From: Tetramitus jugosus
Lineage: Eukaryota > Protista > Heterolobosea
Assembly: GCA_937625935.1 (NCBI GenBank)
Contig: OW569357.1
Coordinates: 186,001 to 250,000, forward strand
DNA length: 64,000 nt
Direction: 5' to 3'
Part shown: piece after piece, positions 42,368 to 43,621 of the stretch
Layout of the letters: each line of letters starts with the position of its first letter
How positions within the stretch are numbered: the stretch's first letter is position 1
The notes under the pieces: model-generated
Databases searched by the model: none
Seen by the model: the letters and a program-made list of their open reading frames with translations, nothing else
What the model was told of the DNA's origin: nothing
Position numbers and translations under genes: made by a program

Positions 42368-43621
42368 ATGCAAATATTTGTAAAGACTCTCACAGGAAAG
42401 ACCATCACATTAGAAGTCGAAGGTGGTGATACGATTGAAAACGTCAAGCAAAAGATTCAAGACAAGGAAGGTATTCCTCCAGATCAACAACGTTTGATTT
42501 TCGCAGGTAAGCAACTCGAAGATGGAAGAACTTTGAGTGACTACAACATTCAAAAGGAATCCACACTTCACTTGGTATTGAGACTCAGAGGAGGTGCTCG
42601 TGCCAAGAGCAAGGCTGTCGAAGAAGAAGAAGAAGAAGAAAAACAAGAAGCAGAAGAAGAGTCTGGTCCAAAGAATATTCAAGAATTGGAGAATCATGGT
42701 ATTGGTGCTGCTGATATTAAAAAGCTTGTGGCCGCTGGTTACAATACTGTTGAGTCAGTTGCTATGGCACCAAAGAAGGCCATTATTGCCGTCAAGGGTA
42801 TTTCTGAAGGAAAAGCTGATAAAATTATGGAAAAGGCCCAAAAGCTTGTGCCCATGGGTTTCCAATCAGCCACAGCCTGCAAACAAAAGAGAGAATCCAT
42901 CATTAAGATTACAACTGGAAGTGAAGAGTTGGATAAGATGTTTGGCGGTGGTATTGAGAGCAATTCGATCACTGAACTCTTTGGAGAATTTAGAACAGGA
43001 AAAACTCAAATATGTTTGACTCTGTGTGTGACATGTCAATTACCACTGGAGAATGGTGGTGGACAAGGAAAAGCTCTGTACATTGACACTGAAGGTACCT
43101 TCAGACCTGAACGTTTGAAGGACATTGCAGAACGATTTGGTCTCAATCCTGATGATGTTCTTGACAATGTAATCTGTGCAAGAGCTCACAACAGTGATCA
43201 TCAAGATCAATTATTGATTCAAGCTACTGCTATGATGGCTGAGGACCACTTTGCTCTTGTTATTGTTGATTCCGCAACCAATTTGTACCGTACTGACTTT
43301 TCTGGTAGAGGTGAACTGTCTGCCCGTCAAATCAAACTTGCTCAATTCATGAGAAATTTGACAAGAATATCTGAAGAGTTTGGTGTTGCTGTAGTGATAA
43401 CAAATCAAGTCGTTGCCATGGTTGATGGTATGACATCATTTGGACCAACATCTAAACCAATAGGAGGTAACATTGTTGCTCATGCATCAACGACAAGAGT
43501 TTTCCTCAGAAAGGGTAGAGGTGAAGCCAGAGTTGCAAAGATTTATGACTCTCCATCCCTGCCTGAATCAGAAGCAACATTTGGTATCTATGCAGAAGGT
43601 ATCAAGGATGCCACTGCTTAA
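42368..43621 (+). CDS. RAD51: Ubiquitin-RAD51 fusion protein
   Basis: Codons 1-76 (42368-42595) are ubiquitin ending LRLRGG. An acidic linker follows, then the RAD51 N-domain, FxxA (FQSA), Walker A GEFRTGKT, Walker [16 protein letters not shown] and KIYDSP. Confidence 0.95.

What the first reader, a model, noticed from the sequence alone, without database searches (positions are those of the whole stretch)
42368..43621. In-frame ubiquitin-RAD51 fusion with no separate RAD51 start
Seen: a near-canonical ubiquitin (differs from human only at P19G, S20G and A28Q; all seven Lys and the LRGG end intact) runs directly into [25 protein letters not shown] and a complete RAD51. There is no intron, and no Met before the RAD51 N-domain, so RAD51 has no start codon of its own. 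Known: natural ubiquitin fusions are mostly polyubiquitin, Ub-eL40 and Ub-eS31, and DUBs cleave them after GG. Inference: RAD51 is made as a ubiquitin precursor. This would tie ubiquitin supply 1:1 to recombinase induction, aid folding, or expose a defined Ala N-terminus. If uncleaved, the ubiquitin could act as a UFD degron or decorate the filament.
Basis: partly seen in the sequence, partly recalled or inferred. Interest (0 to 1): 0.78.

Follow-up and report, generated by a model that had tools for sequence, protein, structure and literature searches.

The report
Amoeba RAD51 made fused to ubiquitin
In a group of soil and groundwater microbes that are likely amoebae, the gene for the central DNA-repair enzyme RAD51 begins with a complete ubiquitin in place of its own start codon; the ubiquitin is likely clipped off as the protein is made, so this is a new partner for a known kind of precursor, probably with an ordinary end product.

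Summary
The fusion is real. Window 42368-43621 encodes a 76-aa ubiquitin running in frame into a complete RAD51 (not DMC1); the next in-frame Met is residue 133. Contigs from 6 of 8 sequencing runs laid (6 studies, two on record as RNA) bridge the junction, and the RNA runs show no splice joint. Two further lineages (83-87% RAD51 identity) carry the fusion. They form one clade (100/99) next to Acrasis, which points to heterolobosean amoebae. The supposed linker is RAD51's own acidic N-tail (11 of 13 residues match Willaertia's), so ubiquitin replaced Met1. Ubiquitin stayed 75-76 of 76 identical while RAD51 drifted about 14%. That, the intact LRLRGG and a non-proline next residue favour cleavage by deubiquitylases, releasing ordinary RAD51 (inferred, untested). 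A role in ubiquitin supply or in making a special N-terminus is unlikely. In the third lineage (one sequence) the ubiquitin has decayed to 46% identity but keeps GG. I found no paper describing the fusion, and the scan's notes show no earlier report of it. A second, unfused RAD51 could not be checked because no genome is held. Verdict: new variant of a known kind; interest 0.5.

The parts
42368..43621 (+). Single intronless ORF, ubiquitin-RAD51 fusion, 417 aa plus stop
   Evidence: whole ORF also on contig L001
42368..42595 (+). Ubiquitin moiety, 76 aa, 73 of 76 identical to mammalian ubiquitin, ends LRLRGG
   Evidence: identical in P0123 and 75 of 76 in P0242
42596..42664 (+). Native acidic N-terminal tail of RAD51 (residues 77-99), first residue Ala; predicted disordered
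   Evidence: 11 of 13 residues match Willaertia RAD51 after its Met1, best of 116 compared; pLDDT below 50 for residues 74-100
42665..42847 (+). RAD51 N-terminal helix-hairpin-helix domain (about residues 100-160)
   Evidence: PF14520; alignment to human RAD51 chain
42860..42871 (+). FxxA oligomerisation motif (FQSA, residues 165-168); motif name recalled
   Evidence: alignment A1
42887..43612 (+). RAD51 ATPase core (residues 174-415), Walker A at 42983-43006; clade-specific L2-loop sequence GPTSKPIGG
   Evidence: PF08423, TIGR02239
42320..42367 (+). A/C-rich leader with no ATG, likely the 5' UTR; nearest upstream ATG is at 42148
   Evidence: L001 begins about here; ATG list. Contigs cannot show a transcript start.

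Best explanation
The gene encodes ubiquitin joined in frame to a complete RAD51, and the precursor is likely cut by deubiquitylases after Gly76 as it is made, releasing one free ubiquitin and an ordinary RAD51 that would begin with Ala. Shown: one ORF, present in RNA-library contigs across the junction, conserved in three lineages, ubiquitin sitting exactly where Met1 was, and RAD51 motifs intact. Inferred: cleavage; a single origin in a heterolobosean ancestor; and retention because ubiquitin now supplies RAD51's only start codon. The ubiquitin would act as a clipped-off leader, with at most a modest boost to yield or folding, as shown for yeast Ub-eL40 and Ub-eS31.
For: The LRLRGG end is intact and the next residue is not proline in any of the four fused sequences compared: A, V, A, G. 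PMC3692480 (passages read) says most DUBs cleave linear fusions co-translationally whatever follows, proline excepted. Ubiquitin shows 0 of 76 and 1 of 76 changes against P0123 and P0242, while the RAD51 core shows 46 of 318 and 41 of 318 (Fisher p = 4e-5 and 1.5e-3). This is expected if the moiety is released into the cell's ubiquitin pool. The junction lies in a predicted disordered stretch. All 19 listed strain variants in the RAD51 part are synonymous, and window vs L001 gives 9 synonymous codons and 1 non-synonymous. The fused RAD51s are one clade, 100/99. PMC8122580 (passages read) reports that intact precursors are undetectable in model eukaryotes and that ubiquitin acts as a minor cis-chaperone.
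Against: There are no protein-level data and no DUB of this organism was examined. Conservation of ubiquitin could also come from gene conversion with other ubiquitin genes, or from an uncleaved domain needing all ubiquitin surfaces. P0124 keeps the fusion with a ubiquitin only 35 of 76 identical (I44T, R74L, 61-aa N-terminal extension), which may not be cut by general DUBs. Nothing here separates 'helps expression' from 'harmless passenger'. No genome is held, so an unfused second RAD51 is not excluded.
Confidence: 0.75

Rival explanations
1. Cleavage is slow or regulated. Uncleaved Ub-RAD51 is degraded through the ubiquitin-fusion-degradation route or is held inactive, and a DUB releases active RAD51, for example after DNA damage.
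For: The decayed copy in P0124 keeps K27, K29, K33, K48, R72 and GG while losing I44 and R74 (alignment); K29 and K48 are the UFD lysines (recalled). Yeast Rad51 uses its N-terminal extension to control level and half-life (PMC7470947, abstract read).
Against: The window's junction is a canonical DUB substrate in a predicted disordered region. P0124 is one sequence from one contig whose DNA I could not see, and its RAD51 also has a longer branch and Leu in place of Phe in the FxxA motif.
Confidence: 0.12
2. The fused gene is a specialised second RAD51, and an ordinary unfused RAD51 exists elsewhere in the genome. This is compatible with cleavage.
For: The clade has a fairly long stem (0.2) and shared changes at otherwise conserved sites, including the L2 loop and Q-to-M/T in VVAQVDG. 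Its TIGR02239 scores (505-535) are lower than unfused relatives' (547-557).
Against: No unfused member falls inside the clade among the best 120 hits. The clade sits next to Acrasis RAD51, as an orthologue would.
Confidence: 0.15
3. The fusion exists to supply ubiquitin in step with RAD51 induction.
For: A cleaved precursor does yield one ubiquitin per RAD51, and the moiety is fully conserved in two lineages.
Against: Ub-eL40-type contigs are present in runs X1, X4, X9 and X15, and many other ubiquitin contigs pile on the region. The P0124 lineage keeps the fusion with a moiety unlikely to work as ubiquitin.
Confidence: 0.04
4. Assembly chimera between a multi-copy ubiquitin gene and RAD51.
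For: Ubiquitin is repetitive and collapses in assemblies. No contig listed or 22 spans ATG to junction in one piece.
Against: The junction is bridged in 6 of 8 runs from 6 studies. L001 holds the whole ORF. The same fusion point recurs in proteins 83-87% identical from other sources.
Confidence: 0.01

Closest known systems
Ubiquitin-ribosomal protein precursors Ub-eL40 (UBA52/UBI1,2) and Ub-eS31 (RPS27A/UBI3)
   Same: One intact N-terminal ubiquitin, LRLRGG followed directly by the partner's mature N-terminus, and no separate start codon for the partner.
   Different: The partner is a recombinase, not a ribosomal protein. It is restricted to one small clade rather than all eukaryotes. Cleavage and chaperone effect are shown for those and untested here.
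Lineage-specific ubiquitin fusions of protists (Ub-actin, Ub-P1/P2, Ub-NiSOD, Ub-HMG box in Bigelowiella and Guillardia; PMC6332867)
   Same: Sporadic, clade-limited fusion of ubiquitin to a housekeeping protein, significance unknown.
   Different: RAD51 has 0 mentions in that paper's main text (its supplements not read). It is also absent from the supplementary tables of PMC8122580 (5,355 ubiquitin-containing proteins, 156-row architecture table).
FUBI-eS30 (FAU), a degenerate ubiquitin-like leader that keeps GG and is cut by USP36
   Same: Matches the state of relative P0124: a decayed ubiquitin-like leader with di-Gly kept before the partner.
   Different: The window's own moiety is true ubiquitin. 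No dedicated protease is known here (PMC8354635 and PMC10611586 seen as listing and abstract start only).
Saccharomyces Rad51 N-terminal domain (residues 1-66) with autonomous expression-enhancing activity (PMC7470947)
   Same: An added N-terminal piece that could raise RAD51 yield.
   Different: The yeast piece is a disordered, phosphorylated, uncleaved extension with no relation to ubiquitin. It is an analogy only.

Membership tests
Ubiquitin (true, conjugatable) | 76 aa, near-invariant sequence, seven Lys, C-terminal LRLRGG | tested here: met
   73 of 76 vs mammalian units. Positions 19 and 28 are the two most variable among 30 distinct polyubiquitin units, but G19 and G20 occur in 0 of those 30; Q28 occurs in 9 of 30.
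RAD51 (vs DMC1) | Passes TIGR02239 and fails TIGR02238; HhH domain, FxxA, Walker A/B | tested here: met
Ubiquitin-fusion precursor | Single in-frame ORF, partner without its own start codon | tested here: met
Ubiquitin-fusion precursor | Transcribed as one message across the junction | tested here: met
   RNA-library contigs bridge in X6 and X10 (and X13, guessed RNA); intergenic 42034-42301 has zero depth in those runs but is covered in the runs. Contigs give no strand, start or level.
Ubiquitin-fusion precursor | Cleavable junction: GG followed by a non-Pro residue | tested here: met
   A, V, A, G in P0001, P0123, P0242, P0124; rule from PMC3692480
Ubiquitin-fusion precursor | Actual cleavage by DUBs in the cell | not testable with these tools
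   needs protein data
Ub-eL40 / Ub-eS31 family | Partner is ribosomal protein eL40 or eS31 | tested here: not met
   partner is RAD51; works like these but is not a member
Integral ubiquitin-like domain proteins (RAD23 type) | Diverged, uncleavable ubiquitin-like domain lacking a di-Gly site | tested here: not met
   window moiety is near-canonical with GG; TIGR00601 score 47 vs cut-off 207

The most novel reading that the evidence does not exclude
The ubiquitin leader is a built-in switch on homologous recombination. RAD51 is made in a pre-tagged form that is destroyed or inert until a deubiquitylase frees it. In one lineage the leader has already evolved from ubiquitin into a dedicated FUBI-like module that keeps K29, K48 and the di-Gly site.
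Probability: 0.12. Interest if true: 0.8.

Novelty: new variant of a known kind. Interest (0 to 1): 0.5.

Why it matters
It adds a core DNA-repair enzyme to the short list of natural ubiquitin-fusion partners. It also offers a three-state series in one clade: unfused outgroups, intact fusion and decayed fusion. That series bears on the open question of why ubiquitin fusions are kept (cis-chaperone, regulation or neutral entrenchment). The fusion is a rare shared character that could mark an unnamed amoeba clade. If cleavage is constitutive, the biology of the product is ordinary; if regulated, it would be a new way to control recombination.

Tried and rejected
No whole genome is held, so the second-RAD51 check could not be done. 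The full-length homolog search was swamped by polyubiquitins in all 120 listed rows; I repeated it on residues 77-417 and 50-417. Search for independent fusions elsewhere: none outside the clade among 272 fetched proteins, 266 of them RAD51-like. Pfam found ubiquitin in 0 of 26 long representatives picked from the 150 listed. These lists are cut at the best 120 or 150, so distant fusions are not excluded. A clade DNA pattern found only L001 in metagenome contigs; a second pattern found 0 in viral and 0 in prokaryote contigs. DNA of P0123 and P0124 was therefore not seen, which left no cross-lineage dN/dS and no check of P0124's gene model. The AlphaFold model from a 12-row alignment was poor overall (mean pLDDT 58, pTM 0.39) and was used only for 'ubiquitin folded, 74-100 disordered'. 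The ESM Atlas listed only RAD51/RadA clusters, none with ubiquitin among the families shown. The order of branching inside the fused clade is unresolved (50/24). The 47-row tree finished only in quick mode; the careful tree used 22 rows I picked. Literature searches for the fusion returned 6, 0, 2, 0 and 1 papers, none describing it by title or abstract start; the library lacks most subscription journals. Depth figures from contigs were not used as expression levels. Rejected: internal start (no in-frame ATG before codon 133); spliced-in alternative first exon (no joints in the four RNA or RNA-guess runs); DMC1 identity.

Full report
Observation. The stretch 42368-43621 (+) is one 417-codon ORF in a gene-dense eukaryotic contig of about 40% GC, between a RasGEF gene and uncharacterised minus-strand ORFs. 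Residues 1-76 are ubiquitin, differing from chimpanzee, mouse and rat UBC units only at P19G, S20G and A28Q, with all seven lysines and LRLRGG. Positions 19 and 28 are the two most variable among 30 distinct majority units drawn from 119 polyubiquitins; Q28 is common (9 of 30), while G19 and G20 were seen in none. Loose ends in runs X9 and X10 suggest other ubiquitin genes with Gly at codon 20, so this may be the lineage's normal allele; these are mixed samples and the hint is weak. The rest is RAD51: it passes TIGR02239 and fails the DMC1 model, and it aligns to human RAD51 chains over residues 17-339 of the cleaved part at E 2e-141. In-frame Mets are at 1 and then 133.

Is it real? Twenty runs from 15 studies hold part of the stretch; I laid 8 of them. 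Contigs with at least 31 letters on both sides of 42595/42596 are listed for X6, X10 and X13 and X1, X2 and X15: 6 of 8 runs, 6 studies. X6 and X10 are both 2019 soil metatranscriptomes and may be one campaign, and one DNA holder could be the window's source. X9's listed record has only 16 letters beyond the junction and X4 lists none; both tables were cut. One search lists no joints, and the upstream intergenic stretch has zero depth in those four runs but is covered, which argues that the bridging contigs come from RNA. Contigs cannot show strand or start. None of the listed pieces runs from the ATG to the junction, because ubiquitin collapses in the assemblies, but L001 (1326 nt) holds the entire ORF with 42 nt upstream. 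Window vs L001 gives 3 synonymous codons in ubiquitin, and 6 synonymous plus 1 non-synonymous in RAD51. All 19 variants listed in the RAD51 part are synonymous, with 106 rows not shown. The gene is under purifying selection.

Relatives. Searching with the RAD51 part gave 6829 hits; of the best 120, exactly 3 carry a ubiquitin domain and they are the top 3 (same). P0122 is the same gene with one change. P0123 and its cluster members P0242 and P0243 have a RAD51 core 85.5-87% identical, a tail only 46-54% identical, and ubiquitin 76 of 76 and 75 of 76 identical (Fisher p 4e-5 and 1.5e-3). P0124 has a core 82.6% identical but a decayed ubiquitin: 35 of 76 identical, L8P, I44T, R74L, K6, K11 and K63 lost, K27, K29, K33, K48, R72 and GG kept, and a 61-aa extension in front. 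It is a single predicted protein whose DNA I could not see. In a 22-row tree built on the RAD51 part only, the fused sequences form one clade (100/99), sister to Acrasis kona and three environmental RAD51s (94/90, just short of the starred threshold), with Willaertia next (87/90). A quick 47-row tree also recovers the fused clade and groups it loosely with Acrasis and Willaertia. The host is therefore likely a heterolobosean amoeba; this rests on one gene. No fusion outside the clade was found among 272 fetched proteins, within the limits of those cut lists.

Anatomy of the junction. The 23 residues after GG match the N-termini of unfused RAD51s: 11 of 13 positions are identical to Willaertia RAD51 from its residue 2, the best of 116 compared, though the Glu run inflates such counts. 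Tail length to the GP motif is 23-24 in three fused proteins and 23-30 (counting Met) in unfused relatives. So ubiquitin took the place of the initiator Met and nothing else was added. Several close unfused relatives have Pro at position 2 (P0127, P0128, P0129, P0135), whereas the four fused forms have Ala, Val, Ala or Gly. Proline is the one residue that blocks DUB cleavage (PMC3692480, passages). This fits selection for cleavage, but P0126 has Ala, so the ancestral residue is not known. A low-confidence model folds ubiquitin separately (pLDDT about 85) and leaves 74-100 disordered.

Mechanism. Most likely (0.75) the precursor is cut co-translationally after Gly76, giving free ubiquitin and a normal RAD51. 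The strict conservation of the moiety is what release into the common pool predicts. A Ub-eL40-type contig in run X1 differs from it at 32 of 214 nt, which argues against recent conversion with that gene but does not exclude conversion with polyubiquitin. Why it is kept is inferred: it provides the only start codon, and it may modestly help yield, as reported for eL40 and eS31 (PMC8122580, passages). Yeast Rad51 has an unrelated N-terminal expression enhancer (PMC7470947, abstract). The supply argument is weak, since other ubiquitin genes are present and P0124 keeps the fusion with a decayed moiety. The special-N-terminus argument is also weak, since 46 of 115 unfused top hits have Ala at position 2 and Met removal (recalled) would expose it anyway. 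Regulated cleavage or degradation (0.12) is the interesting rival and rests mainly on P0124.

Comparison and novelty. It works like Ub-eL40 and Ub-eS31 but is not a member. It belongs with sporadic protist fusions such as Ub-actin and Ub-NiSOD (PMC6332867: first of six parts read plus term search; supplements not read). RAD51 and its Pfam ids are absent from the supplementary tables of PMC8122580. Five literature searches found no description, and the scan's notes hold other ubiquitin fusions but not this one. Verdict: a real, apparently undescribed, clade-conserved variant of a known kind; interest 0.5.

Noticed in passing
window 42576-42732 and 43157-43592 (runs X1 and X4): Two runs of one study show a second version of the locus with deletions: 155 nt with 9 other letters, removing the ubiquitin end, tail and start of the N-domain, and 434 nt in the ATPase core. 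Both shift the frame. In X1 their depth is about 22, against 31 and 26 for the intact contigs. More deletions flank the gene (42045-42153 in X1; 43885-43976 in both). This looks like a decaying second haplotype or duplicate.
   Followed up: partly
protein P0124 (no locus held): Sister-lineage fusion with a decayed ubiquitin (46% identity, RLLGG end, 61-aa extension) and Leu in place of Phe in the FxxA motif; gene model unverified.
   Followed up: partly
window 296-1252 (+): One ORF holds the C-terminal part of HMG-CoA reductase (PF00368) followed in frame by an acyl-CoA-binding domain (PF00887): a possible reductase-ACBP fusion.
   Followed up: no
window 47957-49393 (+) and 32438-33322 (-): A RimK-like ATP-grasp ligase and a pantoate-beta-alanine ligase, families more typical of bacteria (recalled), in this eukaryotic contig.
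   Followed up: no
window 43400-43470 (RAD51 L2 loop): All fused RAD51s share a shortened, altered L2 loop (GPTSKPIGG instead of ADPKKPIGG) and lose the conserved Gln of VVAQVDG; this could affect single-strand DNA binding.
   Followed up: no
window 3090-4583 (+): Leishmanolysin-family (Peptidase_M8) gene.
   Followed up: no
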